Below are positions 22,230 through 35,677 of a stretch of 35,677 nucleotides of DNA, piece after piece. The DNA lies in contig JAKEGO010000020.1 in the NCBI GenBank assembly GCA_022615805.1, positions 1 to 35,677 on the forward strand, read 5' to 3'. Made by a program: the position numbers and the translations under genes. The notes beneath the pieces were generated by a model. That model had not been told where the DNA came from. It made no database searches and worked only from the letters and a program-made list of their open reading frames with translations. The DNA is from Thermoplasmata archaeon. Lineage in GTDB: Archaea; Thermoplasmatota; JAKEGO01. Within the stretch, counting starts at the first letter, position 1; every line of letters begins with the position of its first letter.

Positions 22230-22247
22230 CCTACCACCTCTCGCCGA

Positions 22248-23126: not shown

Positions 23127-23130
23127 GGTA

Positions 23131-23863: not shown

Positions 23864-26800
23864 TCATAGCACCTCGCATATCGCCCCCTTGATGAGGGAG
23901 AGGATCTGCTGGTCCTTGAAGCCCTTCTGCTGTATGGCCCCGGAGCGGCAGGTGGCGGCGCAGAGGCCGCACCCCTTGCAAAGGGCCTCGGTGACGGCTG
24001 CATGGCCGTCCTTGAGCTCGATGGCGTTGTAGGGGCACGCGGCGACGCACAGACCGCAGCCGACGCACATCGCATCGTCGACCGCCGAGACCGTGGCCTC
24101 GGCCTCGAAGTGGTCCTTCGAGATGATGGTGCAAGCCCTGCTTGCCGCGGCGTAGGCCTGGGCGATGGTCTCGCCTATGAACTTGGGGGAGTGGGCCATG
24201 CCGGCGAGGAAGACCCCCTCCGTGCTGAAGTCCACGGGCCTGAGCTTGACGTGCGCCTCGAGGAAGAACCCGTCCGAGTTGAGCGGGACCTTGAGGAGCT
24301 TGCCCAGTGCCTCGTTTCCGTCGGGGGGTGCGATCGCGGGGGACAATACCACCCTGTCCGCCGATATGTCGATGTCCTCGCCGAGTATCGGGTCCCGGAC
24401 TCGCACCTCGAGGCCGCCGCCGGTCCGGGCGACGACGGGCTTGCGGTCAAGGTCGTACCGGACGAAGATGACGCCCTTCTCCCGGGCCCGTTCGTACAGG
24501 GTCTCGTTGAAGCCGTACGTGCGCATGTCGCGGTAGAGGACGAACACGCGGGCGTCGGGGTAGCGTTCCACCACCCGCAGCGCGTTCTTCACCGCGTTCG
24601 TGCAGCATATCCTGCTGCAATATGGCCGGTGGTCCTCCCTCGAACCCACGCACTGTATCAGCGCCAGCGTCGAACCGGAGAGGTCGGCCCCCTCCGCCAG
24701 CATCCGCTCCAGGTCCGTCTGAGTGACGACGTCGGGGTCCTGGCCGCACAAGTACTCCGTCGGGACGGACTCGACCGCTCCTGTCGCGACCACGACGACG
24801 CCGTGCTCGATGACCGTCCCGGAACCGCCATGGTCGAGGGTGGTACGGTAGTTGCCGACGTACCCCTCGATGGTCGAGATGGCCGCGCCCGTATGGACCC
24901 GGACCCGCCCGTCCGCCTCGACCCGCGCCGTCAGCCCCCGGAGGAAGGCCTGGACGTCTGCCCCGTCCGCCGTCGTGTGGATGTGGTTCAGGTTGCCGCC
25001 GAGCCGGGAGTCGCGCTCGACGATGTCCACGTCGTAGCCCTGCTCCGCGATGGCGAGGGCCGCCGTCATCCCTGCGAGGCCTCCGCCGACGACCAGCGCT
25101 GACTGCGTCACGCCGAGCCTCACCTTGGACAACGGCTCGATGATCTGCGCCTTCGAGACCGCCATGCGGACGAGGTCGCGGGCCTTGGCTGTGGCGCTCG
25201 CCCTCTCGCCCATGTGGACCCACGAGCACTGGTCGCGGATGTTGGCCATCTCGAACAGGTGGGCGTTGAGCCCCGCCTCCCGCAGGGTCGACTGGAACAG
25301 CGGCTCGTGCGTGCGGGGCGTGCACGACGCCACGATCACGCGGTTGAGGTGGTGCTCCTGGATCGTCTCCACGAACCGCTTCTGCGTGTCCTGCGAGCAC
25401 GTGTAGAGGTTGTCCTCCGCGTGGACGACGTTCGGCAGGCCGCGGGCGTAGGCGACGAGCCCGGGCACGTCGATGTAACCGCCGATGTTGATCCCGCAGT
25501 GGCAGATGAAGACGCCGATCCGCGGAGCATCCCCCCGGACGTCCGCCTCGGCGGGGAGGGCCTTGCCGCCCACGAGGGTGTCCCTCGCGCTCGCTATCAG
25601 CCCGCTGGCCCTCGCGGCCGCCCCCGATGCCTCCATGACCGTCTCCGGGATGTCCTTCGGCCCCGCGAAAGAGCCGCAGACGAAGACCCCCTCGCGGGAC
25701 GTGCTGACGGGGTCGAGGCCGTCGACGGCGCAGAACCCCCTCTCCGTGAGTTCGACGCCGACGCGTTCGGCGAGCCGGCGGGCGCCCTCGCTCGCCGTGA
25801 AGCCCACAGAGAGCACGACGAGGTCGAACCTCTCCTCTTCGATGTGGCCATCCTCGGTCTCGTACCTTATCAGGAGGTCGTTGGTTTCCGGGTCCTCTTC
25901 GACCCTGGAGACGCGGCACCGCAGGAACCTGACCCCGTACTCGTCCCGCGCCCTGTCGTAATAGGCCTCGAAGCCCTTCCCGAAGGTGCGCATGTCCATG
26001 AAGAATATCGTCGGCTCGATGGTAGGGACGTGCTCCTTTGCGATCACCGCCTCCTTGATCGCATACGTGCAGCAGACGGACGAGCAGTAGTCCCTCCCGC
26101 AGCCGAGGTCCCTCGAGCCCACGCACTGCAACCACGCTATGCGCCGGGGCTGGACGCCGTCCGACGGCCTCAGGACGTGGCTCCTGAAGGGGCCGCTGGC
26201 GGAGAGGATGCGCTCGAACTCGATGCTCGATACGACGTTCGGGAAGCGCCCGTGGCCGTACTCGGGCTTGAGCGCCGGGTCGAACTCCTCGAAGCCCGGG
26301 CAGAGGATCACGCTGCCGACCCGCAGCTCCACAATCTCGTCCTTGTCGTCGTACCGGATCGCATTCGCGAGGCACAGGTTCTCGCACAGGCCGCAGCCGA
26401 TGCACCTCTCCCGGTCGATGGCGAAGGCGAGCGGGACCGCTTGCGGGTAGAGGAGGTAGATCGCACGCCTCTCGTTCATCCCCTCGTTGAAGGAGTTGAT
26501 GGCGTCGATGGGGCACTCCCTCGCGCAGACGCCGCAGCCGGTGCAGGCCTCGGGGTCCACGTAGCGGGCCTTTCGCCTGATCCTCACGCGGAAGTCGCCC
26601 GGCGTGCCCTCGAACCCCTCCACCTCGGAGTAGGTGACGAGCTCGATGTTCGGGTGGCGGCCGACATCGACGAGCTTCGGTGCCATTATGCACATGGAGC
26701 AGTCGTTGGTCGGGAAGGTCTTGTCCAGCTGGGCCATCGTGCCGCCGATGCCGGGCGCCGTGTCGACGAGGTAGACCTTGAACCCGGAGTTCGCTAGGTC

Positions 26801-26875
26801 GAGGGCCGCCTGCATGCCGGCGATGCCGCCGCCCACCACGAGGACCGCACCCACGGCATCGGGCGTCACCGACAC
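23864..26875 (-). CDS. hdrA: Giant two-module HdrA-like flavoprotein, paralog 2
   Basis: 1003 aa with VLVVGGGIAGMQAALD, DKTFPTNDCSMC, CTGCGVCARECP / CIGCGLCENLC, CVGSRDLGCGRDYCSSVCC, IGVFICHCGINI, ALVVGGGLAGMTAALAIAE, CVGSREDHRPYCSRICC and CVGCGLCVAACP / CKGCGLCAATCRSGAIQQKGF. The start is a GTG at 26875 (or the GTG at 26869), overlapping the upstream stop. Confidence 0.9.
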   Translation of the reverse strand: MSVTPDAVGAVLVVGGGIAGMQAALDLANSGFKVYLVDTAPGIGGTMAQLDKTFPTNDCSMCIMAPKLVDVGRHPNIELVTYSEVEGFEGTPGDFRVRIRRKARYVDPEACTGCGVCARECPIDAINSFNEGMNERRAIYLLYPQAVPLAFAIDRERCIGCGLCENLCLANAIRYDDKDEIVELRVGSVILCPGFEEFDPALKPEYGHGRFPNVVSSIEFERILSASGPFRSHVLRPSDGVQPRRIAWLQCVGSRDLGCGRDYCSSVCCTYAIKEAVIAKEHVPTIEPTIFFMDMRTFGKGFEAYYDRARDEYGVRFLRCRVSRVEEDPETNDLLIRYETEDGHIEEERFDLVVLSVGFTASEGARRLAERVGVELTERGFCAVDGLDPVSTSREGVFVCGSFAGPKDIPETVMEASGAAARASGLIASARDTLVGGKALPAEADVRGDAPRIGVFICHCGINIGGYIDVPGLVAYARGLPNVVHAEDNLYTCSQDTQKRFVETIQEHHLNRVIVASCTPRTHEPLFQSTLREAGLNAHLFEMANIRDQCSWVHMGERASATAKARDLVRMAVSKAQIIEPLSKVRLGVTQSALVVGGGLAGMTAALAIAEQGYDVDIVERDSRLGGNLNHIHTTADGADVQAFLRGLTARVEADGRVRVHTGAAISTIEGYVGNYRTTLDHGGSGTVIEHGVVVVATGAVESVPTEYLCGQDPDVVTQTDLERMLAEGADLSGSTLALIQCVGSREDHRPYCSRICCTNAVKNALRVVERYPDARVFVLYRDMRTYGFNETLYERAREKGVIFVRYDLDRKPVVARTGGGLEVRVRDPILGEDIDISADRVVLSPAIAPPDGNEALGKLLKVPLNSDGFFLEAHVKLRPVDFSTEGVFLAGMAHSPKFIGETIAQAYAAASRACTIISKDHFEAEATVSAVDDAMCVGCGLCVAACPYNAIELKDGHAAVTEALCKGCGLCAATCRSGAIQQKGFKDQQILSLIKGAICEVL

Positions 26876-27639
26876 TCACCCCCGGTCCCCGCGAGAACGT
26901 AGAGCGGGGAGTCGCCGTCCATCCCGCCCGAGTGGACGATCCCCCGGTCCTCCAGGTCGACGATGATGCGGAGGACGTCGCGCGGCGGCATGTCGAGGGC
27001 GCCCGCTATGGTCCCGACGGTCATGGGGCCCTTGCCGAGCTCGGCGCGGACCCGCTGCCGGAAGTGCTCGACCGAGATGTTGCGCCAAAGAACCTCGCGG
27101 AAGGCGTCGGCGTCGAGGACCTCCCCGTACGCGTTGCCGGCCTCCACGAGCTCGCGCTCCTTGCCGACCAGCCAACGGAGCCGGTCGCTCGCAGCGATCC
27201 CCTCTCCCACGGCGGCCCTCTCCGAGGCCCCCGGGACGCCGGACAGGGGCCCGAGGGCGCGCACCCGCCCGACGAAGCACGTGATGACCTCGCCGAAACG
27301 CTGGCCTTCCGCGGCCGAGACCCAGTCCAGGAGGAGGCGCTCGGGCTCGATGCCGACCTCCTCCAGGATCCTGCTCGCCATCGCCATCTTCCTTTCGGCC
27401 TGGTAGTTCCCGGTGAGGTAGTGGCAGTCGCCGGGGTGGCACCCGAGGACCGCAACGCCGTCTGCGCCGCCTCTGAAGGCCTCCAGCACAAGTACCGGGT
27501 CCACGCGGCCGGAGCACATGACGCGGATGACGCGGACGTTGGGAGGGTACTGCACCCGGGAGACGCCGGCGAGGTCGGCGCCGGCGTAGGCGCACCAGTT
27601 GCAGAGGAAACCCAGTATGCGTGGCTCCCAGGAGGTCAT
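26866..27639 (-). CDS. mvhD: MvhD-like [2Fe-2S] subunit fused to a ~120-aa C-terminal extension with a winged-helix-like segment
   Basis: It starts at the ATG at 27639 (MTSWEPRILGFLCNWCAYAGADLAGVSRVQYPPNVRVIRVMCSGRVDP...[10 protein letters not shown]), with an ATGA overlap to the hdrA stop. The extension ends ...GPMTVGTIAGALDMPPRDVLRIIVDLEDRGIVHSGGMDGDSPLYVLAG. Confidence 0.85.
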   Translation of the reverse strand: MTSWEPRILGFLCNWCAYAGADLAGVSRVQYPPNVRVIRVMCSGRVDPVLVLEAFRGGADGVAVLGCHPGDCHYLTGNYQAERKMAMASRILEEVGIEPERLLLDWVSAAEGQRFGEVITCFVGRVRALGPLSGVPGASERAAVGEGIAASDRLRWLVGKERELVEAGNAYGEVLDADAFREVLWRNISVEHFRQRVRAELGKGPMTVGTIAGALDMPPRDVLRIIVDLEDRGIVHSGGMDGDSPLYVLAGTGGECR

Positions 27640-30600
27640 GGCCGCACCCCCCCGAAGGCGTCGATCTGCGCCCCGATCTCGTCGTCCGTGAAGTGCCGCA
27701 TGGTGATCGCGAGCTTCGGGCACGAGGCGCCGCAGACGCCGCACCCCTTGCACGATGCCGATATGACCGTGGCCTTCCGGCCCCCCTCCATCAGCGATAT
27801 GTCGATCGCCTTGAAAGGGCACAGGGAGGCGCAGAGGCCGCATCCGATGCAGAGGTCGCGGTCGACGACCGCGACGGCGGGGTCCACGGTCACCCGCCCC
27901 TTGGACAGGAGCGTGGCGGCCCTCCCGGCCGCGGCGCAGGCCTGCGCGATCGACTCGTCAATCGTCTTCGGCGAATGGGCCATTCCGGCGAGGAAGACGC
28001 CGTCGGTGGCGAAGTCCACCGGCCGGAGCTTGACGTGGGCCTCCAGGAAGAAGCCGTCGGCGTTCCGCGGGACCTTGAGCATCTTCGCAAGGGCCATGCT
28101 GTCCTCCCTCGGCTCGATGGCGGGGCTCAGCGCGAGGAGGTCGGCGTCTATGACGATGTCCTCGCCGAGGATGGGCTCGCGGGCCGTTATCCTGAGGCGG
28201 CCTGCCTCGGAGGTCACGACCGGTGGTCCCTCCGGGTCGAACCTGATGAAGATGGCGCCGAGCTCCCGCGCCCTCTCGTAGGCGACCTCCCGCGTGCCGT
28301 AGGTGCGGATGTCGCGGTAGAGGACGAACACCCGGGCGTCGGGGAAGGTCTCGAGGATGCGGACTGCGTTCTTCACGGCGTCGATGCAGCACACGCGGCT
28401 GCAGTACGGGCGGGCCGTGTCGCGCGAGCCGACGCACTGTATCATCGCGACGGTCCTGCCGGACAGGTCCTCGCCATCGGCCACCATCCGCTCGAGCTGG
28501 CGCTGGGTGACGACGCGCTCGTCCATGCCGTACATGTACGCGTCCGGGACGGACTCGACGGCGCCGGTGGCGACGATGACGGCGCCGTGCTCGACGGCCG
28601 TCGTCGAGCCGGCAGCCTCGAGGACCGTCCTGAAGTTCCCGACATAGCCTTCGATGGACGCGATCGCGGACGAGAGACGGAGGTCGATGAGCGGGTGGCC
28701 CCGGACCCGCGAGACGAGCTCCGCCAGGTAGGACGGGACGTCGTCGTTCTCGAGCGTGTAGCGGGTGTGGAGGAGGTTGCCGCCGAGGCGGTCCTCCCGC
28801 TCGACCAGGGTCGCGGGGAATCCCTGTCCCGCGAGGGCGAGTGCGGCCGTCATGCCGGCGAGCCCGCCGCCGATCACCAGGGCGCGGGGGTTGACGTCGA
28901 GCGTCACCTCCTCGAGGGGCTCGATGAGGAGTGCCTTCGCCACGGCCATGCGCACCTGGTCGCTCGCCTTCGCGGTGGCCTCCTCGGGCGCGTTCATGTG
29001 GACCCACGAGCACTGGTCGCGTATGTTCGCCATCTCGAACAGGTGCGGGTTCAGCCCGGCCTCGCGGAGGGTCTCCTTGAAGAGGGGCTCGTGCGTCCGG
29101 GGCGTGCACGAGGCGACGATGACGCGGTTCAGGCCGTGCTCGCGGATCCGCTCCACGAGCGAGCGCTGGGCGTCCGCCGAGCACGTGTAGAGGCTGTCCT
29201 CGGCGAGGACGACTCCGGGCAGGCCCCTCGCGTACTCGACCACCGCCGGGACGTCGACGTAGGCGCCGATGTTGATGCCGCAGTGGCAGACGAAGACGCC
29301 CACCCTCGGCACCTGGCCACGGACGTCGATCTCGGCGGGGTGCTCGGCCCGGGTCACCAGGGCGCCGCGCGAGCCGGCGATGAGGGCGCCCGCCCTGGCG
29401 GCGGCGCCCGATGCCTCGATGACCGTCTCCGGGATGTCCTTTGGCCCCGCGAAGGCCCCGCAGACGAAGACGCCGGGGACGCTCGTCTCCATGGGCGACG
29501 TCTCGCCGGTCACGCAGAAGCCGAAGCGGTCCGTCTCGACGCCGACGAGGGACGCGAGGTCCCGGGCCGTCCGTCCGGGCTCGAGCCCGACCGAGAGGAC
29601 GACCATGTCGAACCTCTCCTCACGGAGGCTGCCGTCCTCCGCCTCGTACCTGACCACGAGGTCGTGGCTCCCGGGGGCCTCCCTGACGTCCGCGACGCGG
29701 GAACGGATGAAGCGGACGCCGTGCCTGTCCCTGGCGGCCGTGAAGTACTCCTCGAAGCCCTTGCCGAAGGTGCGCATGTCCATGTAGAACATCGTCGGCT
29801 CGATGCGCGGGTCGTGCTCCCTCGCGATGACGGCCTCCTTTATGCCGTAGGTGCAGCAGACGGACGAGCAGTACTCGTTGCCGCACCCCCGGTCCCGCGA
29901 GCCGACGCAGTTGATCCATGCGATGCGCCGCGGCTCGGCGCCGTCGGACGGGCGGCGCACGTGCCCCTCGTACGGCCCGCTGGCCGAGAGGATGCGCTCG
30001 AACTCGAGGCTCGTGACGACGTTCGGGAAGTTCTCGTATCCGTACTCCCCCTTCAGGCGAGGATCGAACCCCTCGAAACCGGGCGCGAGGACGATGGCCC
30101 CGACCTCGAGGACGCGCTCCCTGTCCTCCATGTCGAGGTCGACCGCGCCCGCAGGACAGACGGAGACGCACTTCTGCACGCACTTCCCCTTCGTGACCTG
30201 GAGGCAGCGCTCGGGGTCGACGACGTATCGCATCGGCACGGCCTGCGGGTACGGGATGTATATCGCCCCGCGCCTCGAGAGCCCCTCGTCGTAGTCGTCT
30301 GGGAACCTTCCCGCGAGGACGCACGCCTCGGCGCAGAGGCCGCAGCCCACGCAGGCTTCGGTGACGCGGCGGGCGCGCTCGCGCACCTTGACCCGGAACG
30401 CTCCGGCCTCGCCCTCCACAGCGACCACGTCGGCGTTGGTCGCGAGGTCGACGTTCGGGTGCCTCCCGATGTCGACGAGCTTCGGGGAGAGTATGCACAG
30501 CGAGCAATCGTTCGTGGGGAAGGTCTTGTCGAGCTGCGCCATGACGCCGCCGATGGCCGGCGAGCCCTCGACGAGGTGCACGCGGAAGCCCGCCTCCGCG

Positions 30601-30827
30601 AGGTCGAGCGCGGCCTGTATTCCTCCGACGCCCCCGCCCACGACGAGCGCGGCGCCGACCGGGGCGCGCGCTCCCGTCGCCCCGGGAACGCTTCCGCCGG
30701 ACGCACCGGGTTCGGATGCGCCGCCTCCAGCTGCCCTCGCTGCCTCGGGCACGCCCGGACCGGATACGGGGGTGGCGCCATCGTGACCGCAGGCGCACCC
30801 CTCCGTCCCCGCCGGCCTCGGGCTCAT
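27636..30827 (-). CDS. hdrA: Giant two-module HdrA-like flavoprotein, paralog 3, with a low-complexity CxC-containing N-terminal extension
   Basis: 1063 aa with ALVVGGGVGGIQAALD, DKTFPTNDCSLC, CVGCGLCAEAC, CVGSRDRGCGNEYCSSVCC, VGVFVCHCGINI, ALVIGGGLAGMTAALALAG, CVGSRDTARPYCSRVCC and CIGCGLCASLCP / CKGCGVCGASCP. The ATG at 30827 overlaps the hdrB stop (ATGA). Confidence 0.9.
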   Translation of the reverse strand: MSPRPAGTEGCACGHDGATPVSGPGVPEAARAAGGGASEPGASGGSVPGATGARAPVGAALVVGGGVGGIQAALDLAEAGFRVHLVEGSPAIGGVMAQLDKTFPTNDCSLCILSPKLVDIGRHPNVDLATNADVVAVEGEAGAFRVKVRERARRVTEACVGCGLCAEACVLAGRFPDDYDEGLSRRGAIYIPYPQAVPMRYVVDPERCLQVTKGKCVQKCVSVCPAGAVDLDMEDRERVLEVGAIVLAPGFEGFDPRLKGEYGYENFPNVVTSLEFERILSASGPYEGHVRRPSDGAEPRRIAWINCVGSRDRGCGNEYCSSVCCTYGIKEAVIAREHDPRIEPTMFYMDMRTFGKGFEEYFTAARDRHGVRFIRSRVADVREAPGSHDLVVRYEAEDGSLREERFDMVVLSVGLEPGRTARDLASLVGVETDRFGFCVTGETSPMETSVPGVFVCGAFAGPKDIPETVIEASGAAARAGALIAGSRGALVTRAEHPAEIDVRGQVPRVGVFVCHCGINIGAYVDVPAVVEYARGLPGVVLAEDSLYTCSADAQRSLVERIREHGLNRVIVASCTPRTHEPLFKETLREAGLNPHLFEMANIRDQCSWVHMNAPEEATAKASDQVRMAVAKALLIEPLEEVTLDVNPRALVIGGGLAGMTAALALAGQGFPATLVEREDRLGGNLLHTRYTLENDDVPSYLAELVSRVRGHPLIDLRLSSAIASIEGYVGNFRTVLEAAGSTTAVEHGAVIVATGAVESVPDAYMYGMDERVVTQRQLERMVADGEDLSGRTVAMIQCVGSRDTARPYCSRVCCIDAVKNAVRILETFPDARVFVLYRDIRTYGTREVAYERARELGAIFIRFDPEGPPVVTSEAGRLRITAREPILGEDIVIDADLLALSPAIEPREDSMALAKMLKVPRNADGFFLEAHVKLRPVDFATDGVFLAGMAHSPKTIDESIAQACAAAGRAATLLSKGRVTVDPAVAVVDRDLCIGCGLCASLCPFKAIDISLMEGGRKATVISASCKGCGVCGASCPKLAITMRHFTDDEIGAQIDAFGGVRP

Positions 30828-31714
30828 TCGGCCCCCCCGGCGCCCCCGAGCTTCGCCATCAGCTCGGTGGGCTTTACCTTGTTAAGCCTGAAGCCGAGCT
30901 CCTTCGGGTCGACGCCGTAGGCGAGCCCCAGGACCTGCGGGTAGTACAGAACGGGGATGCCGTACGTCTCCCCGAACTCCTGCTCGATCTTGCGCTGGTT
31001 GTCCTCGTACATCACGGTGCAGAACGGGCATATCGAGACCAGGGCGTCGACGCCCGCCTTCCTGACCGACTCGAGCTTCGCCTTCGACATCCGGAGGGCG
31101 ATCCCCTGGTCCACGCCGAGGATGGCGCCGCCGCAGCAGTCGAGCTTTCCCTCGTAGTCGACCCATTTCGCGCCCGTGACGGAGACGAGCTCCTCCACGG
31201 TATGCGGGTCCTCCGGGTCGTCGAACCCCTCGTATATGTGCGCCGGCCGCAGGTAGTGGCACCCGTAATGGACCGCGAACCTGAGCCCGCTGAGGTCACG
31301 CACGACGGGCTCCTTCAGACGCTCGAGCCCGACGTCCTCGTACAGCACCCTCGAGAAGTGCTTCACCTTCACGCCGGGGCGGTACTCCCTGTCGACGAGC
31401 GCGAGCCGCCCGTTGACGCGGGCGAGGACGTCCGGATGGGCGTCCAGCTCCTTCTGCGCCTCGGTCAGGACCCCGGTGCAGGCGCTGCAGAGGGTGCAGA
31501 CGTCGAGCCCCATTTCCCCCGCCACGGCCAGGTTGCGGGCGGCCATCGCCATGGCGTCCTCCCTCGATGTCGACTTCATGGGGTAGCCGCAGCACGAGAA
31601 CGGCTCGACGTCGACGAATTCGATGCCGAGCTTCGCAGCCACGGCCCGGGCGCTCAGCTCGTAGTTCAGGCCCCGGACCGGTATCGTGCACCCGAGGAAG
31701 AGCGCGTACCTCAT
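30824..31714 (-). CDS. hdrB: HdrB-like subunit (two CCG domains)
   Basis: 296 aa from the ATG at 31714 (MRYALFLGCTIPVRG...FSCCGYPM...CTLCSACTG; HYGCHYLRP...LDCCGGAIL...SICPFCTVMY). Only this part of track ORF 30824..32116 is real. An ATGA overlap joins it to hdrC. Confidence 0.9.
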   Translation of the reverse strand: MRYALFLGCTIPVRGLNYELSARAVAAKLGIEFVDVEPFSCCGYPMKSTSREDAMAMAARNLAVAGEMGLDVCTLCSACTGVLTEAQKELDAHPDVLARVNGRLALVDREYRPGVKVKHFSRVLYEDVGLERLKEPVVRDLSGLRFAVHYGCHYLRPAHIYEGFDDPEDPHTVEELVSVTGAKWVDYEGKLDCCGGAILGVDQGIALRMSKAKLESVRKAGVDALVSICPFCTVMYEDNQRKIEQEFGETYGIPVLYYPQVLGLAYGVDPKELGFRLNKVKPTELMAKLGGAGGAE

Positions 31715-32205
31715 CCCGTGGTCACCTCCTCGAGTACCGGGTCCCTGCATATCTCTCGCACCTCGGGGATCTCCTTGCGGACCGGCGGGAGGCCCATCTT
31801 CTCGCGCTTCTTGTTGTCGAAGTCCTCGACCTCGTAGAGCCTTCCGTGCGCCATCAGGAGCCGCGCCTGCTCCCTGAAGGACGGGTGGACGTGACCCTCG
31901 CGCATCGCGATGTTCTTCAGCGCCGCCATGATGTCGGTGAGGCAGACGTCCTGGGGGCAGCGGTCGTAGCACGTGTAGCACGTGCTGCAGAGCCATATGA
32001 AGTCGGACGAGAGCACCTGCTCCCGCATCCCGAGGAGGACCATCCGGATGATCTTCCGGGGGTTGTACCTGTCGTCGATCTCGCGGACAGGGCACCCGGC
32101 GGTGCAGGTGCCGCACGCGAAGCAGCGGGAGATCTCCTTGCCGCCAAGCTCCGCCGCGACCTCGCGCCAGAAGCCGGCGTCGAGCTCGCTCGTCCTTATG
32201 GTCAT
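31711..32205 (-). CDS. hdrC: HdrC-like 2x[4Fe-4S] subunit
   Basis: 164 aa from the ATG at 32205 (MTIRTSELDAGFW...CFACGTCTAGCP...CSTCYTCYDRCP). Only the tail of track ORF 31711..33225 is real. Confidence 0.85.
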   Translation of the reverse strand: MTIRTSELDAGFWREVAAELGGKEISRCFACGTCTAGCPVREIDDRYNPRKIIRMVLLGMREQVLSSDFIWLCSTCYTCYDRCPQDVCLTDIMAALKNIAMREGHVHPSFREQARLLMAHGRLYEVEDFDNKKREKMGLPPVRKEIPEVREICRDPVLEEVTTG

Positions 32206-33254
32206 CACTTCGCCTCCATTACAGCCTTCTTCACGTCCTCCGGGGTGACCCCGGGGGCCTCGATGCCCGACGATTCGTAGAAACCCTCGACGGCCGAGAC
32301 GACCTCGGAGCCCTCGCGCTCCACGTCGCGCAGGGAGTCCTCCAGCCCGGAAAGCTCCTCCTTCGGGAGCATGGTGAAGTCCCCGGTGATGCCGATGTCG
32401 GCGATCCGCCGGCCGCGCACCTCCTGGGCCGTGCGGACCAGGCCGCCCCGGGCCTTGTACAACCCGTAGAGGATCTCGACGCCCTCGGCTATCTTGACGC
32501 CCCTGGGCATCCTCGGCACCTTCCGGTACAGGAACTCGGGGGAGTCGAACCACGCCGCCAGCTCGGCCATCTTCGCCACGACGTCGTCCGACAGTGCGAC
32601 GGGGATCAGCGGTCCCAGCAGCTCCCCGAACCTGCGGTGAAGCGCGCGGGTTATCTCTCCCCGCGGGGGCAACGCGTCGAGCTCGCGCCTCATCGTCGTG
32701 ACGTGCTCCTCGATGGTCTTGAAGACCTTGTCCCGGAACTTCTCGTCCGGTACCCTGACCGCCCTCGCCATGGCGCCGTAGTCGAAGTCCATCATCATGG
32801 AGCCGACGAACACCATCGATCCGTCGATGTTCGCCCCTCCGAGGCCGCCGATCTTCCTGCCTTCCGCGGTCACGATGTCGTTGACCTCGCGGAACCTCGT
32901 GTCGATGCCGAACTCGCCGTAGGCCTCGATCGGCGGGGCCGAGAGGTGACGGTAGATGTCCCTGACCCCCTTCGGGAACGCCGGGTTCCCGCGGTCCCAG
33001 ATCACGTGGAAGAATATCTGGTCGCGGTCGAGGTAGACCGTCCCGCCGCCGACCTCCCTCCGGAACAGCGGCAGGCCCTCGCGCTCCATCTGCGCGAGGT
33101 CGACCTCCTGCGAGGGGTCCTGGAAGTAACCTATGCTGATGAAGGGTCGGTCCGGGGAGACGGTCACGACCGCCTCGACGCCCATGCGGGCGAGGGCGTG
33201 GAATATCAGCATCGACTGCTTCCACGGCCTGACGCCGAGGTCGAGGAGGTACAT
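32205..33254 (-). CDS. lplA: Lipoate-protein ligase A-like protein (BPL/LPL catalytic domain plus C-terminal accessory domain)
   Basis: 349 aa with PFISIGYFQD, FRREVGGGTVYLD and NDIVTAEGRKIGGLGG. The last matches the GxKxxG catalytic-lysine motif of LplA. The stop overlaps the hdrC ATG by 1 nt. Confidence 0.85.
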   Translation of the reverse strand: MYLLDLGVRPWKQSMLIFHALARMGVEAVVTVSPDRPFISIGYFQDPSQEVDLAQMEREGLPLFRREVGGGTVYLDRDQIFFHVIWDRGNPAFPKGVRDIYRHLSAPPIEAYGEFGIDTRFREVNDIVTAEGRKIGGLGGANIDGSMVFVGSMMMDFDYGAMARAVRVPDEKFRDKVFKTIEEHVTTMRRELDALPPRGEITRALHRRFGELLGPLIPVALSDDVVAKMAELAAWFDSPEFLYRKVPRMPRGVKIAEGVEILYGLYKARGGLVRTAQEVRGRRIADIGITGDFTMLPKEELSGLEDSLRDVEREGSEVVSAVEGFYESSGIEAPGVTPEDVKKAVMEAK

Positions 33255-33311: not shown

Positions 33312-34373
33312 TCATTTCACCGCCTTCCATATGATGTCCTCGATGCTCCTGACCTGGAGAACCCGCTCGCCCTTCGCCGCCGCGGCGTTCGCCGCCTTCC
33401 TCAGGACGGTCTCGCACGTGGGGCAGGCCGTCACGATGGTGTCGGCGCCCGTGTCGAGCGCCTCGCGGACCCTCGCCATGGCGATGTCGTCCGACAGCGC
33501 GGCGTCGGACATGAGGATGCCGCCGCCGCCCCCGCAGCACATGGACCCCTTGCCGTGGTGGGTCATCTCGACCACCTCGCAGCCGAGCCGCCGGAGTATC
33601 TGCCGGGGCTCGTCGATGATGCCGAGGGTGCGGGAGAAGTCGCAGGGGTCGTGGTAGGTCACCTTGAGCCCCAGATCGGCCTCGGGGAGGCGCCCGAGGA
33701 TGGCCTGGAGGACGTGCCTCGCCTCGACCCCGTGGCCCTCGCGGAGGAAGACCGTGCAGGTCGGGCAGAGCGCTATCGCCTCGCCGCCGGCGCCGAAGGC
33801 CTCGCGGAACCGTTCCTTGTGCCCCTCGAAGTCGTCGACGAAGCCCATGACCTCCATCGGGAAGCCGCAGCAGACCTCGTCCACGACCTTCGGCTGGATG
33901 CCGAGGGCCTCCAGGATGCGGACGAACTTCTTCACGTTGTTGGGGCGCGACATGTACTGGCACCCGAGGAAGAGGGGGACCTCGCCGTCGCGGACGGGCG
34001 CCCTGACGTCCGCGTCGCCGTATATGTTCCCCGTGGCCTTCACGTTCTCGATGACGCGCCGGTGGACGTCGCTCGCGAAGCCCGCCCGGACGAGGTCGGC
34101 CCTCGCCGCGGCAACGATGCCCATTATCTCGACGTTCGCGGGGCACTTGGACATGCAGTCCCTGCAGGTCGTGCACTGGAAGAGCTTCATGGCCACCGCC
34201 GCGGAGGGCTCGATCTCGCCCTTGAGCAGGCCGTACGAGAGGATCACCTTTCCGCGGGGCCCGTCGGTGTCCCACCCTGTCCTGAGCCGAACGGGACACT
34301 CCTCGAGGCAGTAGGCGCAGCGGATGCAGACGTACATCTCGTTCTCGATCCTCGACAGCTCCCGGGCCTCCAT
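33312..34373 (-). CDS. HdrD/GlcF-like Fe-S protein (2x[4Fe-4S] ferredoxin domain plus two CCG domains)
   Basis: 353 aa with CIRCAYCLEECP and CTTCRDCMSKCP. CCG domain 1 is FLGCQY...VCCGFPM...LCPTCTVFL. CCG domain 2 is YHDPCDF...MCCGGGGG...TACPTCETVL. The ATG lies 1 nt after the upstream stop. Confidence 0.85.
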   Translation of the reverse strand: MEARELSRIENEMYVCIRCAYCLEECPVRLRTGWDTDGPRGKVILSYGLLKGEIEPSAAVAMKLFQCTTCRDCMSKCPANVEIMGIVAAARADLVRAGFASDVHRRVIENVKATGNIYGDADVRAPVRDGEVPLFLGCQYMSRPNNVKKFVRILEALGIQPKVVDEVCCGFPMEVMGFVDDFEGHKERFREAFGAGGEAIALCPTCTVFLREGHGVEARHVLQAILGRLPEADLGLKVTYHDPCDFSRTLGIIDEPRQILRRLGCEVVEMTHHGKGSMCCGGGGGILMSDAALSDDIAMARVREALDTGADTIVTACPTCETVLRKAANAAAAKGERVLQVRSIEDIIWKAVK

Positions 34374-34374
34374 G

Positions 34375-35677
34375 TCACCGGCCCCCTATGGTGTAACGGA
34401 GGGGCGTCGCCGTCCTCCAGTCGTCCGGGGCGTCCTGGAGCTTGTGCGGGTTGAGGATCCCCTTCGGGTCGAGCGCGGCCTTTATCGACCGGAACAGCTC
34501 GAGCTGGGCCGCCTTCTCGGCCTTCCACATGGGGGCCTTCGAGAGCCCGATGCCGTGCTCGCCGGAGGTGGTCCCGCCGACCTCGCGGACGTGGGCGTAG
34601 AGCTCTTCCATCGCCCGCGCGGCCGCGGCCCACTGCGCCTCGCTGGCGGTCTCCATCAGGATCTTCGTGTGGATGAGCCCCGCGCCGCAGTGGCCGTAGG
34701 CGCTCATCACGATGCCGTGCCTGTCGGCGACCTCGTGGACCTTCCTCACGGTCTCGGCTATCCTCGAGACGGGGACGGCCAGGTCGTCGGCGAGCGACGT
34801 CGATACGATCCCTTCCCGGTACCGGGAGAGGGAGGGGAAGAGCTTCTGGCGGCCAGCGTAGATGCGGGCCATCTCCTTCGGGTCCGTGCTCACCTCGATC
34901 CCGTGGCCGCCGTTCGCCTCGAAGACCCGGGACACCTCGCCGATCTCCCTTTCGACCTCCTCGCGGGTCATGCCGTTGCACTCGAACATGATGATGGCCG
35001 CCGCTTCGCGCAGACCGAGGCCGAGGGAGGTGTTGACGGCGCGTATCGCGATGTCGTCCATCAGTTCCATCATCGACGGCCTGAGGCCGGTGGTCACGAC
35101 CGCCGTGATGGCCGAGCCGGCCTCCTCGAGGGTGTCGAAGTGCGCTATGCCCATGGCGCGGTCCTTCGGGAGCGGCGCTAGGAGCAGTGTGGCCTCGGTC
35201 ACCACGGCCAGGGTGCCCTCCGATCCAACGATGAGCCGGTGGACCTGGTAGCCGGACGACTCGACGCGGGTCCTGCCCCCGAGGTCGACCGCCTCGCCGC
35301 TCGCGAAAACGACCTTCATGCCCAGCACGGCATCGCGGGTGGCGCCGTACTTGACGGCACGGTTCCCCGACGCGTTCGTGCCTATCATTCCGCCGATCGT
35401 GCAGATGTTACCGGAGCTCGGCGTGGGCGGGAAGAAGAGCCCGTGGGGCTTCAGCTGCCTGTTGAGCTCGTCGTTGACGTCCCCCGCCTCGACCCTGCAG
35501 AGCATGTCGCCCGGGCTGATCTCCAGGACGCGGGACATGCGCTTCATGTCGAGGACGATGCCGCCGTCCACGGGGACCGCCTGGCCGGACATGGCGGAGC
35601 CCGCTCCGCGCGGAATGACCGGGACGCCGTTCCCGTTCGCGTACCTCAGTATCCCCTGCACCTCCTCCGTGCTCCCG
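34375..35677 (-). CDS. FAD-linked oxidase, GlcD / D-lactate dehydrogenase family. The N-terminus lies beyond the window end
   Basis: The frame stays open to 35677 (..GSTEEVQGILRYANGNGVPVIPRGAGSAMSGQ...). It has the FAD-binding PCMH-type segment GGMIGTNASGNRAVKYG and the C-terminal GGTTSGEHGIGLSK...DPKGILNPHK. The track start at 35661 is an internal GTG. Confidence 0.9.
   Translation of the reverse strand, partial: GSTEEVQGILRYANGNGVPVIPRGAGSAMSGQAVPVDGGIVLDMKRMSRVLEISPGDMLCRVEAGDVNDELNRQLKPHGLFFPPTPSSGNICTIGGMIGTNASGNRAVKYGATRDAVLGMKVVFASGEAVDLGGRTRVESSGYQVHRLIVGSEGTLAVVTEATLLLAPLPKDRAMGIAHFDTLEEAGSAITAVVTTGLRPSMMELMDDIAIRAVNTSLGLGLREAAAIIMFECNGMTREEVEREIGEVSRVFEANGGHGIEVSTDPKEMARIYAGRQKLFPSLSRYREGIVSTSLADDLAVPVSRIAETVRKVHEVADRHGIVMSAYGHCGAGLIHTKILMETASEAQWAAAARAMEELYAHVREVGGTTSGEHGIGLSKAPMWKAEKAAQLELFRSIKAALDPKGILNPHKLQDAPDDWRTATPLRYTIGGR

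What the first reader, a model, noticed from the sequence alone, without database searches (positions are those of the whole stretch)
32205..33254. Lipoate-protein ligase gene embedded between the hdrD-like gene and hdrC
Seen directly: a full-length LplA-like ORF with the catalytic-lysine motif (EGRKIGGLGG) has a stop codon that overlaps the hdrC ATG. It is almost certainly co-translated with Hdr subunits. Established knowledge: in the sulfur-oxidising sHdr systems of bacteria and archaea, hdr-like genes are linked to GcvH-like lipoate-binding proteins (LbpA) and a dedicated lipoate ligase (sLpl(AB)). The lipoylated carrier is essential there. This cluster differs from sHdr. There is no dsrE/tusA/rhodanese in the window. 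The HdrA proteins are giant two-module forms, and MvhD and a GlcD-type dehydrogenase are present. Inference: a lipoylated carrier protein, whose dithiolane is a disulfide, could be the physiological thiol/disulfide substrate of the HdrB/HdrD CCG sites in a carbon-metabolism context rather than a sulfur-oxidation one. Neither 2-oxoacid:ferredoxin oxidoreductase nor any other enzyme in the window needs lipoate, except the orphan GcvH-like protein at 6612-7043.
Basis: partly seen in the sequence, partly recalled or inferred. Interest (0 to 1): 0.75.

Follow-up and report, generated by a model that had tools for sequence, protein, structure and literature searches.

The report
Lipoate ligase inside heterodisulfide-reductase operon
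An uncultured anaerobic archaeon carries a lipoate-attaching enzyme inside its heterodisulfide-reductase operon, and in hundreds of other anaerobe genomes the same enzyme travels with Hdr genes, a lactate-type dehydrogenase and a special lipoate-carrier protein, which suggests that the lipoylated protein is the long-unknown disulfide these reductases act on.

Summary
Bases 32205-33254 (minus strand) encode a 349-aa two-domain lipoate-protein-ligase homologue ("LplX"). Its catalytic lysine and adenylate motif are intact. Its TGA stop shares one base with the hdrC ATG. It lies between glcD-hdrD and hdrC-hdrB-hdrA-mvhD-hdrA.

LplX belongs to a tight family found in at least 555 species genomes, all uncultured anaerobes (Thermoplasmata, WOR-3, Stahlbacteria, Desulfobacterota/Syntrophia and others). 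In 35 of 44 loci with enough flank, it lies within 5 kb of glcD, hdrD, hdrCBA or a special gcvH with a QSAKW/ESGKW lipoylation loop. The window's gcvH (6612-7043) is of that type. Searching from it led back to Hdr-type clusters in all three loci (LplX and GlcD in two), never to gcvT/gcvP.

Best reading, from gene context only: LplX lipoylates this GcvH. The protein-bound dithiolane then shuttles electrons between the GlcD-HdrD 2-hydroxyacid dehydrogenase and the bifurcating HdrABC-MvhD complex.

This is a new variant of the sHdr-LbpA-sLpl(AB) theme. GcvH as an Hdr substrate was already suggested for Culexarchaeia, and one supplementary table auto-tagged such ligases "mHdr" without discussing them.

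The parts
32205..33254 (-). LplX: 349-aa fused Lpl(AB)-type lipoate/octanoate-protein ligase homologue (catalytic domain plus LplB-like C-terminal domain)
   Evidence: Pfam PF21948 at 116 bits. Closest solved structures are T. acidophilum LplA (72.9 bits) and LplB (46.5 bits). K134, RR-x-x-GGG, L75 and V150 are invariant or nearly so in 241 relatives. AF2 model pLDDT 75.6; Foldseek top hits are all two-domain LplA ligases.
6612..7043 (-). GcvH-type lipoyl carrier of the 'KW' subfamily (loop QSAKWVGK, Cys 7 residues before the lipoyl-lysine); the probable substrate of LplX
   Evidence: PF01597 at 134 bits; TIGR00527 at 127 against 116. The same subfamily lies next to LplX/Hdr in 22 of 80 loci and in L089-L091. 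QSAKW occurs in 119 of 120 relatives.
33312..34373 (-). HdrD/GlcF-like iron-sulfur protein (2x4Fe-4S, two complete CCG motifs); likely electron-transfer and disulfide-site partner of GlcD
   Evidence: Pfam CCG x2 plus Fer4_8. CCG motifs at residues 138-206 and 244-320.
34375..35677 (-). GlcD-type FAD-linked 2-hydroxyacid dehydrogenase; N-terminus cut by the contig end
   Evidence: FAD_binding_4 plus FAD-oxidase_C. TIGR00387 at 357 bits, below the 568 cut-off. The frame stays open to the contig end.
31711..32205 (-). HdrC (2x4Fe-4S); its ATG overlaps the LplX stop by 1 nt
   Evidence: TIGR03290 at 123 bits; junction checked.
30824..31714 (-). HdrB with two complete CCG motifs (non-cubane 4Fe-4S disulfide-reductase site)
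   Evidence: TIGR03288 at 275.6 bits; motifs at residues 9-79 and 152-232.
27636..30827 (-). HdrA, 1063 aa, two-module form
   Evidence: NF040770 HdrA2 at 1021.6 bits; Pfam domains.
26866..27639 (-). MvhD-like protein with a C-terminal winged-helix-like extension
   Evidence: PF02662 FlpD at 184.6 bits.
23864..26875 (-). Second HdrA, 1003 aa, two-module form
   Evidence: Pfam domains.
22248..23562 (-). Second HdrC-like (23131-23562) and HdrB-like (22248-23126) pair, followed by TfrA/TfrB-like genes; a possible further user of the same carrier
   Evidence: Pfam and NCBIfam hits; two CCG motifs in HdrB2.
8825..10081 (-). LarA-family 2-hydroxyacid racemase (context: could supply the D-isomer to GlcD)
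   Evidence: Lar_N plus LarA_C. Best NCBIfam model is malate racemase, 312.7 bits against a cut-off of 500. LarA recurs near the cluster in L001, L088, L089.

Best explanation
LplX is a dedicated ATP-dependent lipoate (or octanoate)-protein ligase. Its target is the KW-type GcvH encoded at 6612-7043.

Proposed mechanism. The lipoyl arm of that small protein serves as a protein-bound dithiol/disulfide. It stands in for CoM-S-S-CoB, or plays a DsrC-like role, in organisms not known to be methanogens. GlcD-HdrD oxidises a D-2-hydroxyacid (lactate, malate or similar, with LarA supplying the D-isomer). It exchanges the two electrons with lipoyl-GcvH at the CCG site of HdrD. HdrB of the HdrABC-MvhD complex acts on the same carrier at its own CCG site. 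HdrA then couples this couple with ferredoxin (made by the neighbouring 2-oxoacid:ferredoxin oxidoreductase) to a third partner: NAD(H) through the Flx-like proteins here, or H2 through Mvh hydrogenase in relatives. This would be flavin-based bifurcation or confurcation.

What is shown. The ligase fold and catalytic residues; operon structure; synteny conserved across phyla; reciprocal GcvH linkage; complete CCG sites.

What is inferred. That GcvH is the ligase's target; that the lipoyl disulfide is the CCG-site substrate; the direction of electron flow.
For: Ligase competence. The fold and motifs of an active ligase are present. K134, RRxxGGG and an LplB-like domain are invariant in 241 relatives.

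Operon. The block from glcD to the second hdrA is tightly packed, with junctions of +1, +57, -1, -4, -4, -4 and -10 nt.

Synteny. Among 80 species-level loci from at least 8 lineages, 55 have a core partner within 5 kb; among loci with at least 3 kb of flank on both sides, 35 of 44 do. GlcD counts are 33 inner against 0 outer, HdrD 22 against 0. The linkage is scattered over the whole family tree and occurs in different gene orders, which argues for selection rather than shared ancestry of one operon.

GcvH. A KW-type GcvH is present in 22 of 80 loci, often directly adjacent to LplX.

Reciprocal test. Three GcvH relatives chosen without reference to LplX all lie in Hdr/MvhD/GlcD/LplA-like clusters. 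L091 reads mvhG-mvhA-hycI-glcD::hdrD-lplX-hdrC-hdrB-hdrA::mvhD-gcvH. No gcvT or gcvP was seen.

CCG sites. HdrB1, HdrB2 and HdrD each keep two complete CCG motifs.

Extra ligase. A relative genome (SG8-52-3, my L021) has a separate LipM-LipA pair, so its hdr-embedded ligase is an additional one. This matches the logic established for sLpl(AB)/LbpA (PMC6067878).

Open question. The disulfide used by Hdr in non-methanogens is acknowledged as unknown, and GcvH has been suggested for it (PMC9723716).

Thermodynamics (established values, my inference). With E0' of about -290 mV for lipoamide, -414 mV for H2 and about -500 mV for ferredoxin, H2-driven bifurcation onto a lipoyl disulfide is feasible. 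Dihydrolipoyl to pyruvate (-190 mV) is downhill.
Against: There is no biochemical evidence at all.

In this window gcvH lies 25 kb from the ligase.

About 20% of informative loci show no Hdr/GlcD/GcvH link. The family also occurs in sulfur-relay (DsrE-TusA-DsrEFH, NifU/NifS) and Nitro_FeMo-Co contexts.

Only 22 of 80 loci show gcvH within 10 kb.

The GcvH scores as a genuine glycine-cleavage H protein, so a conventional role is not excluded.

In the oxidative direction, lactate (-190 mV) to free lipoamide (-290 mV) is uphill by about 100 mV.

Two histidines near the binding site in the E. coli and T. acidophilum enzymes are replaced by L75 and V150, so the acyl substrate might not be lipoate.
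Confidence: 0.5

Rival explanations
1. A sulfur-trafficking system like sHdr. Lipoyl-GcvH binds sulfane sulfur delivered by DsrEFH/TusA and presents it to the CCG sites. The module would then serve sulfur-compound oxidation, reduction or disproportionation rather than carbon-substrate electron transfer.
For: L012/L088 and L020 read GlcD-HdrD-LplX-DsrE-DsrE-DsrH-GcvH. L047, L068, L079 and L090 have TusA/DsrE near LplX, GcvH or Hdr. [quoted passage not shown] A Cys lies 7 residues before the lipoyl-lysine in 108 of 120 GcvH relatives.
Against: The window has no DsrE, TusA or DsrH. Only 6 of 80 loci showed DsrE, although the search had limited sensitivity. HdrA here is the large bifurcating type with MvhD, not the small sHdrA. 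GlcD, LarA, malic enzyme, Ldh and OFOR neighbours point to organic-acid metabolism. The GcvH lacks the two terminal cysteines typical of LbpA (sequences).
Confidence: 0.2
2. An ordinary housekeeping or salvage lipoate ligase that serves the normal glycine-cleavage H protein and any E2 proteins, and has merely come to lie in an hdr operon.
For: The GcvH passes the NCBIfam GcvH equivalog cut-offs. In Tanabe's census many Thermoplasmatota have an Lpl without LipA (131 with Lpl, 31 with LipA plus Lpl), so a salvage ligase is plausible. The whole genome of this MAG could not be examined.
Against: The scores are far below every curated ligase equivalog. Linkage is conserved across phyla and gene orders, and is confined to the inner 5 kb. 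The reciprocal GcvH test never found gcvT or gcvP. A relative has separate LipM-LipA. Obligately anaerobic archaea generally lack lipoylation (PMC3904984).
Confidence: 0.1
3. LplX attaches something other than lipoate (octanoate only, or another thiol-bearing fatty acid), or modifies a target other than GcvH. It would then supply a novel thiol cofactor or modification for the Hdr enzymes.
For: Two histidines conserved in E. coli (H79, H149) and T. acidophilum LplA are replaced by invariant L75 and V150. This His-less signature extends through the roughly 150 nearest cluster representatives. GcvH lies within 10 kb in only 22 of 80 loci. No lipoyl synthase gene was seen next to LplX in the Pfam-annotated loci.
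Against: Where a candidate acceptor is adjacent, it is always a GcvH with the lipoyl-lysine intact. The role of the two histidines in substrate choice is my recollection, not something tested here. sLpl(AB)-type ligases also accept both octanoate and lipoate (PMC6067878).
Confidence: 0.08
4. An antioxidant or redox-buffer system. Dihydrolipoyl-GcvH, kept reduced by Hdr/GlcD enzymes, feeds a lipoyl-dependent peroxidase (OsmC/Ohr type). This would resemble the S. aureus GcvH-L/LplA2/macrodomain/SirTM stress operon.
For: In the window, an OsmC-like gene (8374-8823) and a macro-domain gene (5965-6522) lie close to gcvH. OsmC or TrmO-OsmC genes occur near LplX in L011, L018, L056, L085 and L087. 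S. aureus GcvH-L has a role in oxidative stress (PMC4518038 and PMC12440151, listed). That OsmC/Ohr proteins use lipoyl groups as reductant is my own knowledge.
Against: OsmC is rare among the 80 loci, and Macro was not found in any of them. No sirtuin was seen. The dominant partners are energy-metabolism enzymes.
Confidence: 0.07

Closest known systems
sHdr-LbpA-sLpl(AB) system of sulfur oxidisers (Cao et al. 2018, PMC6067878; Tanabe et al. 2023, PMC10332631)
   Same: An Hdr-like gene set (HdrB/HdrC with CCG sites, an HdrA flavoprotein) is genetically tied to a GcvH-homologous lipoate-binding protein and to its own LplA-family ligase of the archaeal-type fused Lpl(AB) kind. In at least one carrier genome, separate canonical lipoylation genes exist as well. 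Some related loci also carry DsrE/TusA sulfur transferases.
   Different: The hosts are strict anaerobes (Thermoplasmata, WOR-3, Stahlbacteria, Syntrophia and others), not sulfur oxidisers. HdrA is the large (about 700-1650 aa) bifurcating type with MvhD. Partners are Mvh hydrogenase or Flx proteins. A GlcD-HdrD 2-hydroxyacid dehydrogenase is the commonest neighbour. The shdrC1B1AHC2B2 or etfAB-emo arrangements are absent. No lipS1/lipS2/lipT was seen nearby. The carrier lacks LbpA's terminal cysteines and scores as a true GcvH.
MvhADG-HdrABC electron-bifurcating heterodisulfide reductase of methanogens
   Same: HdrC, HdrB (two CCG motifs), HdrA and MvhD are present in the same order. In WOR-3/Stahlbacteria relatives the MvhG/MvhA hydrogenase genes are in the same operon.
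   Different: The window shows no sign of methanogenesis or of CoM/CoB. A ligase, a GcvH and GlcD-HdrD are inserted into the operon. The disulfide substrate is therefore presumably different.
DsrC with DsrMK(JOP) in sulfate reducers and sulfur oxidisers
   Same: A small protein with two thiols on a flexible arm would act as substrate of an HdrD-like CCG protein. Desulfobacterota relatives have GlcD-HdrD-GcvH-HdrD followed by a NarI/DsrM-like membrane protein and LplX. DsrEFH sits next to the carrier in some loci.
   Different: The thiols belong to a lipoyl cofactor, not to cysteines. No dsrAB or dsrC was seen.
GcvH in the Ehe hydrogenase-HdrBC cluster of Culexarchaeia (Kohtz et al. 2022, PMC9723716)
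   Same: A gcvH gene sits inside an Hdr/hydrogenase cluster of a non-methanogenic archaeon. The authors suggested it could carry the unknown disulfide for HdrB.
   Different: That work reports no ligase and no GlcD-HdrD, makes no cross-phylum survey, and concerns a different lineage and a different hydrogenase type.
Thermoplasma acidophilum bipartite LplA-LplB ligase
   Same: It is the closest solved relative of both domains of LplX (72.9 and 46.5 bits). The catalytic lysine and the GGG motif are the same.
   Different: LplX is a single fused chain. Over the aligned catalytic domain it is about 22-27% identical in the Foldseek alignments. It has L75 and V150 in place of two histidines. It is encoded inside hdr operons, and nothing in its contexts points to the usual E2 or glycine-cleavage targets.

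Membership tests
LplA / Lpl(AB) lipoate-protein ligase superfamily | Catalytic-domain fold (PF21948/PF03099) | tested here: met
   PF21948 at 116.2 bits against a cut-off of 27. Foldseek top 30 hits are all LplA/LipL-type ligases, TM 0.5-0.7.
LplA / Lpl(AB) lipoate-protein ligase superfamily | Catalytic lysine in the G-R/K-K-x-x-G motif, and the RRxxGGGxV adenylate-binding motif | tested here: met
   K134 aligns with E. coli K133 and the T. acidophilum catalytic lysine. K134 and GGG are 100% conserved in 241 relatives.
LplA / Lpl(AB) lipoate-protein ligase superfamily | Accessory LplB-type domain, needed for acyl-adenylate formation | tested here: met
   Residues 264-348 match NF053749 LplB at 55.9 bits (cut-off 65) and PDB 3R07_C at 46.5 bits, E 2.5e-11. 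The homology is clear although the scores are below the curated cut-offs.
LplA / Lpl(AB) lipoate-protein ligase superfamily | Equivalog-level similarity to characterised ligases (TIGR00545 at 280 bits or more, or the NF0537xx models) | tested here: not met
   111 against 280; 88.8 against 550; 81 against 480.
LplA / Lpl(AB) lipoate-protein ligase superfamily | ATP-dependent lipoylation or octanoylation activity | not testable with these tools
   Needs an enzyme assay.
sLpl(AB) (sHdr-associated ligase) | Encoded in or beside an hdr-like cluster together with a GcvH-like lipoate-binding protein | tested here: met
   The window gene lies between hdrD and hdrC. Across the family, 55 of 80 loci are linked to Hdr/GlcD/GcvH and 22 of 80 carry gcvH. 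In the window itself gcvH is 25 kb away.
sLpl(AB) (sHdr-associated ligase) | The partner Hdr is the sHdr type (shdrC1B1AHC2B2, or shdrC1B1AHB3-etfAB-emo) | tested here: not met
   The order here is hdrC-hdrB-hdrA(1063 aa)-mvhD-hdrA(1003 aa), with glcD-hdrD upstream. No etfAB was seen. The definitions come from PMC11094781.
sLpl(AB) (sHdr-associated ligase) | Linked lipS1/lipS2/lipT genes | tested here: not met
   There is no radical-SAM or LipT-like gene in the window. In the Pfam-annotated related loci only one unrelated radical-SAM gene appeared, 8 kb away.
sLpl(AB) (sHdr-associated ligase) | Phylogenetic placement in clade 3, subgroup 3 of Tanabe et al. | not testable with these tools
   No sLpl(AB) sequence could be obtained, because the S2 Fig alignment is not held. 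Indirect evidence only: their pipeline's 'LplA' model hits both an sHdr-linked Sulfolobales ligase and my L021 relative.
sLpl(AB) (sHdr-associated ligase) | Accompanying DsrE/TusA/rhodanese sulfur transferases | tested here: inconclusive
   Absent from the window. Present beside LplX or GcvH in L011, L012, L020, L047, L068, L079, L085, L087 and L090.
LbpA (sHdr lipoate-binding protein) | Two strictly conserved extra cysteines near the N- and C-termini; only about 25-35% identity to E. coli GcvH | tested here: not met
   The window GcvH has a single Cys (C63), 7 residues before the lipoyl-lysine. It has no terminal Cys and reaches GcvH equivalog scores. The criterion comes from PMC6067878.
Canonical glycine-cleavage H protein | HMM equivalog score and a conserved lipoyl-lysine | tested here: met
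   TIGR00527 at 127.3 against 115.85; NF002270 at 137.2 against 117. K70 aligns with the lipoyl-lysine of M. tuberculosis GcvH.
Canonical glycine-cleavage H protein | Gene context with gcvT/gcvP | tested here: not met
   There is none in the 35.7-kb window, nor in L088-L091. The neighbours are instead Hdr/MvhD/GlcD/LplX, and this also holds around the 22 gcvH-bearing loci.
Canonical glycine-cleavage H protein | ES(V/T)K(A/S)-type lipoylation loop | tested here: not met
   The loop is QSAKW in 119 of 120 close relatives and ESGKW in the Desulfobacterota forms. M. tuberculosis has ESTKS and E. coli ESVKA (the E. coli loop is from memory).
Bifurcating HdrABC-MvhD heterodisulfide reductase | HdrB with two CCG motifs, HdrC with two 4Fe-4S, an HdrA flavoprotein, and MvhD | tested here: met
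   All scores are below the methanogen equivalog cut-offs (for example HdrB 275.6 against 345; HdrA2 1021.6 against 1100).
Bifurcating HdrABC-MvhD heterodisulfide reductase | CoM-S-S-CoB as substrate | not testable with these tools
   There are no methanogenesis genes in the window. The whole genome is not available.

The most novel reading that the evidence does not exclude
Lipoyl-GcvH, installed by a dedicated ligase, is the physiological 'heterodisulfide' of HdrABC/HdrD-type enzymes in a large set of non-methanogenic anaerobes (at least 555 species genomes across Archaea and Bacteria). That would give lipoate a new role, as a protein-bound two-electron carrier in flavin-based electron bifurcation that links 2-hydroxyacid oxidation to H2, NADH and ferredoxin. 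It would also answer what Hdr reduces outside methanogens.
Probability: 0.4. Interest if true: 0.9.

Novelty: new variant of a known kind. Interest (0 to 1): 0.75.

Why it matters
HdrABC, HdrD and MvhD genes are very common in non-methanogenic anaerobes such as syntrophs, sediment archaea and candidate phyla. Their thiol/disulfide substrate is unknown there, which blocks any quantitative model of how these organisms conserve energy.

This finding supplies a concrete, clonable candidate set: a 143-aa GcvH, its 349-aa ligase, and GlcD-HdrD and HdrABC as the proposed oxidoreductases. That turns the question into a set of in-vitro assays.

If the reading is correct, lipoate gains a role beyond 2-oxoacid dehydrogenases, glycine cleavage and sHdr sulfur oxidation. 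The sHdr-LbpA system would then be one branch of a broader and probably older partnership between Hdr enzymes and a lipoyl protein. Lactate or malate fermentation to H2 in uncultured sediment lineages would also have a mechanistic explanation.

Tried and rejected
1. Phylogeny against sLpl(AB). I could not obtain sLpl(AB) sequences, because the alignment in Tanabe's S2 Fig is not held. Placement relative to sLpl(AB) and LipM therefore remains untested. I used NCBIfam and PDB scores, plus Tanabe's HMM labels, as proxies.

2. Genome-wide census of E2, gcvT/gcvP, lipA and lipS in carrier genomes. Tanabe's species table is truncated in the held copy and lacks the rows I needed. Only the per-gene entries for SG8-52-3 were recovered.

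3. Search for a cultured carrier. A third homology search seeded with a Syntrophaceae member listed only metagenomic proteins.

4. Sharp family boundary. The exhaustive representative search shows a smooth gradient from 49% down to about 28% identity, with no gap. The L75/V150 signature marks a broad clade, not just this subfamily.

5. Macro-domain link, as in the S. aureus GcvH-L operon. It is not conserved: there was no Macro hit in the 80 loci.

6. Radical-SAM genes near LplX as possible LipS1/S2. The only recurrent one is a distant (7-8 kb) gene of AmmeMemoRadiSam / activating-enzyme type by the look of its N-terminal sequence. It was not treated as a lipoyl synthase.

7. Literature. Six searches combining lipoate/LplA/GcvH with HdrD, GlcD, MvhD, HdrABC and bifurcation terms found no description of this module.

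8. ORFs at the 5' end of the window. Three long listed ORFs had no Pfam hit and are Arg-rich shadow frames. The real gene there is a truncated aconitase on the minus strand.


Full report
**1. The observation**

The window is a complete 35,677-bp contig (66.6% G+C) from a Thermoplasmata archaeon MAG. The protein is 100% identical to a GenBank entry named 'lipoate--protein ligase family protein'.

On the minus strand, 32205-33254 is an ATG-to-TGA ORF of 349 aa. It matches Pfam LplA-B_cat at 116 bits, E 2.4e-33. The motif EGRKIGGLGG is present.

The TGA stop shares its A (base 32205) with the ATG of the next gene, hdrC. The surrounding genes all lie on the minus strand. In order they are glcD (cut by the contig end), hdrD-like, lplX, hdrC, hdrB, hdrA (1063 aa), mvhD and hdrA (1003 aa). 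The junctions are +1, +57, -1, -4, -4, -4 and -10 nt, which is the layout of a single operon.

That includes the GcvH-like gene at 6612-7043. It also includes the absence of DsrE, TusA and DsrH relatives from all stop-to-stop ORFs of at least 45 aa.

**2. What the protein is**

Its nearest solved relatives are the two subunits of the bipartite Thermoplasma acidophilum ligase: LplA at 72.9 bits and LplB at 46.5 bits. E. coli LplA scores only 26.7 bits. LplX is thus a fused Lpl(AB) of the archaeal type.

An AlphaFold2 model built from 23 family members (mean pLDDT 75.6, pTM 0.74) retrieves only two-domain lipoate-protein ligases from the PDB, with TM about 0.6-0.7.

The catalytic lysine and the RRxxGGGxV motif align with the E. 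coli and T. acidophilum enzymes. They are invariant in 241 relatives.

LplX nevertheless falls far below every curated equivalog model: 111 bits against 280 for TIGR00545, and 88.8 against 550 for NF053751.

Two histidines present in E. coli (VFHD, FHHG) and T. acidophilum (VYHD, WHAA) are replaced by L75 (100%) and V150 (99%). This His-less signature extends through the roughly 150 nearest 50%-identity cluster representatives. The family grades smoothly into more distant LplA-like proteins, with no sharp boundary. That these histidines line the acyl pocket is my recollection of the crystal-structure papers, not something tested here.

**3. Distribution and gene context**

The family is large.
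- 1,976 proteins score E ≤ 1e-5 among the scored candidates, and the top 120 are about 349 aa long and 60-76% identical.
- 3,182 proteins score E ≤ 1e-20 with a Syntrophaceae member as query.
- At least 555 of the species-representative genomes encode a relative.

All named sources are MAGs of anaerobic lineages: Thermoplasmata/Thermoplasmatota, WOR-3, Stahlbacteria, Hydrothermota, Thermodesulfobacteriota (Syntrophia, Desulfobacteraceae, Desulfatiglandales), Zixibacteria, TA06, Acidobacteriota and Clostridia.

I called genes in 80 species-level loci and labelled them by BLASTP against the window's own proteins. Of the 80, 55 have glcD, hdrA, hdrB, hdrC, hdrD or gcvH within 5 kb. Among loci with at least 3 kb of flank on both sides, the figure is 35 of 44 (80%). 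As an internal control, GlcD was found 33 times in the inner 5 kb and never only in the 5-10 kb shell; for HdrD the counts are 22 and 0.

The gene orders differ by lineage.
- Thermoplasmata: [NiFe]-hydrogenase subunits, maturation protease, mvhD, glcD, hdrD, lplX, hdrC, hdrB, giant hdrA.
- WOR-3/Stahlbacteria: glcD, lplX, hdrC, hdrB, hdrA, mvhG, mvhA.
- Desulfobacterota: glcD, hdrD, gcvH, hdrD, a NarI/DsrM-like membrane protein, lplX.
- Others: gcvH-lplX followed by an ~860-aa GlcD that is probably fused to an HdrD-like module (not domain-checked), or gcvH-lplX-hdrCBA-flxDCB.

On a neighbour-joining tree of the ligases, the linked loci are spread over the whole family, including two separate Thermoplasmata clades. 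Conserved linkage with varying gene order across domains is the classical signature of a functional partnership.

**4. The carrier**

An HMM built from GcvH-like neighbours finds such a gene in 22 of the 80 loci, often directly adjacent to lplX. These proteins share an unusual lipoylation loop, (E/Q)S(G/A)KW(V/L)GK. The window's GcvH has QSAKWVGK.

Among 120 close relatives of the window protein, 119 have QSAKW and 108 have a cysteine 7 residues before the lipoyl-lysine.

I then ran the test in the opposite direction, using three relatives of the window's GcvH on long contigs that had not been selected through the ligase.
- L089: three hdrA-mvhD pairs, then gcvH; further on, larA-ldh-glcD-hdrD and an LplA-like gene.
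- L090: gcvH near a group-4-type hydrogenase, then dsrE-tusA-mvhD and an hdrA-like gene.
- L091 (Stahlbacteria): mvhG-mvhA-hycI-glcD::hdrD-lplX-hdrC-hdrB-hdrA::mvhD-gcvH.

None of the three has gcvT or gcvP.

By sequence the protein is closer to true H proteins than LbpA is. It passes the GcvH equivalog cut-offs. It lacks the two terminal cysteines that define LbpA.

**5. Other contexts, and the contrast with sHdr**

That holds for the window but not for the family.
- L012/L088 and L020 read glcD-hdrD-lplX-dsrE-dsrE-dsrH-gcvH. L088 also has larA and a malic enzyme just upstream.
- L047, L068 and L079 have tusA/dsrE nearby.
- L085, L087 and L011 place lplX between dsrE-tusA-dsrE-dsrE-dsrH and DUF1858-nifU-nifS, with no hdr within 10 kb.
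- Hydrothermota copies sit next to a Nitro_FeMo-Co-family gene.

The Hdr side, on the other hand, is clearly not sHdr. sHdr clusters are defined as shdrC1B1AHC2B2 or shdrC1B1AHB3-etfAB-emo (PMC11094781). Here HdrA is a 1,000-1,650-aa bifurcating-type protein accompanied by MvhD, and by hydrogenase or Flx-like proteins. No lipS1, lipS2 or lipT was seen next to lplX in any Pfam-annotated locus.

**6. The rest of the window**

The other genes fit an organic-acid fermentation.
- A LarA-family 2-hydroxyacid racemase, whose best models are malate racemases.
- A four-subunit 2-oxoacid:ferredoxin oxidoreductase.
- SucCD-type acyl-CoA synthetase genes.
- A FlxABCD-like set with a third giant HdrA (1074 aa).
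- A TfrA/TfrB-like flavoprotein and iron-sulfur pair with a second HdrB/HdrC pair.
- An OsmC-like protein, a macro-domain protein, and a truncated aconitase.

HdrB1, HdrB2 and HdrD each carry two complete CCG motifs. The window thus offers three potential disulfide-reductase sites, but no obvious small-molecule disulfide pathway.

**7. Mechanism proposed**

Shown: a catalytically intact ligase, a specialised GcvH, CCG proteins and a GlcD dehydrogenase that are co-inherited.

Inferred:
- LplX lipoylates the KW-GcvH.
- The lipoyl dithiolane is reduced or oxidised at the CCG sites of HdrD (which is wired to GlcD) and of HdrB (which is wired through HdrC to HdrA).
- HdrA couples this couple and ferredoxin to NAD(H) through the Flx-like proteins, or to H2 through Mvh.

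The standard potentials, from established knowledge, are lipoamide about -290 mV, pyruvate/lactate -190 mV, H+/H2 -414 mV and ferredoxin about -500 mV. With these values, H2-driven bifurcation onto a lipoyl disulfide is feasible, and reoxidation of the carrier by a 2-oxoacid is exergonic. In the oxidative direction the first step is uphill by about 100 mV. It would need a shifted carrier potential or pull from confurcation. This is a weakness of the model.

**8. Comparison with the literature**

The closest known system is sHdr-LbpA-sLpl(AB) (PMC6067878, PMC10332631). It has the same logic: Hdr-like enzymes, a GcvH homologue and a private ligase, existing alongside the canonical lipoylation genes.

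One relative (SG8-52-3, my L021) indeed has a separate LipM-LipA pair. Tanabe's pipeline tagged its hdr-embedded ligase as 'LplA' in an 'mHdr' cluster. That tag occurs 17 times in the held part of their S5 Table (examples seen in Thermoplasmatota and Bathyarchaeia) but never in the main text.

Kohtz et al. (PMC9723716) noted a gcvH inside a Culexarchaeia hydrogenase-Hdr cluster and suggested that it might carry the unknown disulfide.

No paper in the library combines lipoate/LplA/GcvH with GlcD/HdrD/MvhD. Obligately anaerobic archaea were reported to lack lipoylation in general (PMC3904984).

**9. Verdict**

It is a conserved, multi-phylum module of ligase, KW-GcvH, CCG proteins and GlcD dehydrogenase in uncultured anaerobes. 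I class it as a new variant of a known kind, Hdr-like enzymes working with a lipoylated GcvH homologue.

The mechanistic reading remains an inference, to which I give a confidence of 0.5. The main rival is an sHdr-like sulfur-carrier role (0.2). The interest is high because it offers a directly testable candidate for the unknown Hdr substrate outside methanogens.

Noticed in passing
window 5965-6522 (+), next to gcvH at 6612-7043 (-): A macro-domain gene (PF01661, 139 bits) lies tail-to-tail with gcvH. This recalls the S. aureus/Streptococcus GcvH-L, macrodomain, SirTM and LplA2 stress operon (PMC4518038). No sirtuin was seen, and no Macro homologue appeared in the 80 related loci.
   Followed up: partly
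window 19824-23562 (-): A split set resembling thiol:fumarate reductase: a TfrA-like flavoprotein (548 aa), a 2Fe-2S/4Fe-4S protein (252 aa), an HdrB-like protein with two CCG motifs (292 aa) and an HdrC-like protein (143 aa). It could be a second enzyme using the same dithiol carrier.
   Followed up: partly
window 10184-16970 (-): FlxA-, FlxB- and FlxC-like proteins plus MvhD/FlxD, followed by a third giant HdrA (1074 aa). Together they look like a putative NAD(H)-linked Flx-Hdr module. In relatives HdrA reaches 1,500-1,650 aa (L015, L018, L022, L028, L036; L086).
   Followed up: partly
window 8825-10081 (-); L088 3141-6933; L001 1-7018: The LarA homologue scores best on nickel-pincer malate-racemase models (312.7 bits, below the cut-off of 500). 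Malic enzyme (L088) and fumarase plus Ldh (L001) lie beside LarA in relatives. The GlcD substrate may therefore be D-malate or another 2-hydroxyacid rather than lactate.
   Followed up: partly
L015 17262-18824; L032 17780-19339: A second, 520-aa ligase-like gene lies right after the giant hdrA. It is an LplA catalytic domain fused to a Cys-rich DUF116 domain (PF01976). Forms of about 520-540 aa also occur among the distant cluster representatives (P0432, P0439, P0459, P0491, P0502).
   Followed up: partly
L085 8138-12958; L087 8191-13074; L011: In these loci LplX sits in a sulfur-relay and Fe-S context with no hdr within 10 kb: TrmO_N-OsmC, DsrE, TusA, DsrE, DsrE, DsrH, LplX, DUF1858, NifU, NifS. 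MinD/CbiA-Fer4 ATPases and Nitro_FeMo-Co proteins lie upstream.
   Followed up: partly
window 6612-7043 (residues C63, K70, W71); P0121-P0240: The GcvH subfamily has a near-invariant Trp right after the lipoyl-lysine. A Cys lies 7 residues before it in 108 of 120 relatives. Either residue could tune the redox potential or form a mixed disulfide or persulfide with the lipoyl arm.
   Followed up: no
window 8374-8823 (-); also L011, L018, L056, L085, L087: OsmC-like genes, sometimes fused to TrmO_N, recur near LplX/GcvH clusters. From my own knowledge, OsmC/Ohr peroxidases can use lipoyl groups as reductant, which hints at an antioxidant side-function for the carrier.
   Followed up: no
window 2-1771 (-): A truncated aconitase-family gene runs off the 5' end of the contig. 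The ORF listing misses it and shows only Arg-rich shadow ORFs there. Aconitase and isocitrate/isopropylmalate dehydrogenase genes also flank the cluster in L089 and L091.
   Followed up: partly
window 1843-3204 (-): A 453-aa protein whose only Pfam hit is an Lrp/AsnC ligand-binding domain, with no DNA-binding domain detected. The sequence looks internally duplicated. Its function is unknown.
   Followed up: no
Tanabe et al. 2023 (PMC10332631), S5 Table: The authors' automated annotation tags LplA genes of Thermoplasmatota (including my L021 gene, LSSG01000080.1 2871-3923) and Bathyarchaeia as lying in 'mHdr' clusters. The tag occurs 17 times in the held part of the table, but the main text never mentions it. 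Bathyarchaeia may therefore carry the module too.
   Followed up: partly
L013, L026, L030, L034, L040, L048, L053 (the gene just upstream of LplX): In Desulfobacterota, a ~280-aa multi-pass membrane protein of the nitrate-reductase-gamma (NarI/DsrM/HdrE-like) family follows the second hdrD. Together they form a DsrMK/HdrED-like pair that could connect the carrier to the quinone pool.
   Followed up: partly
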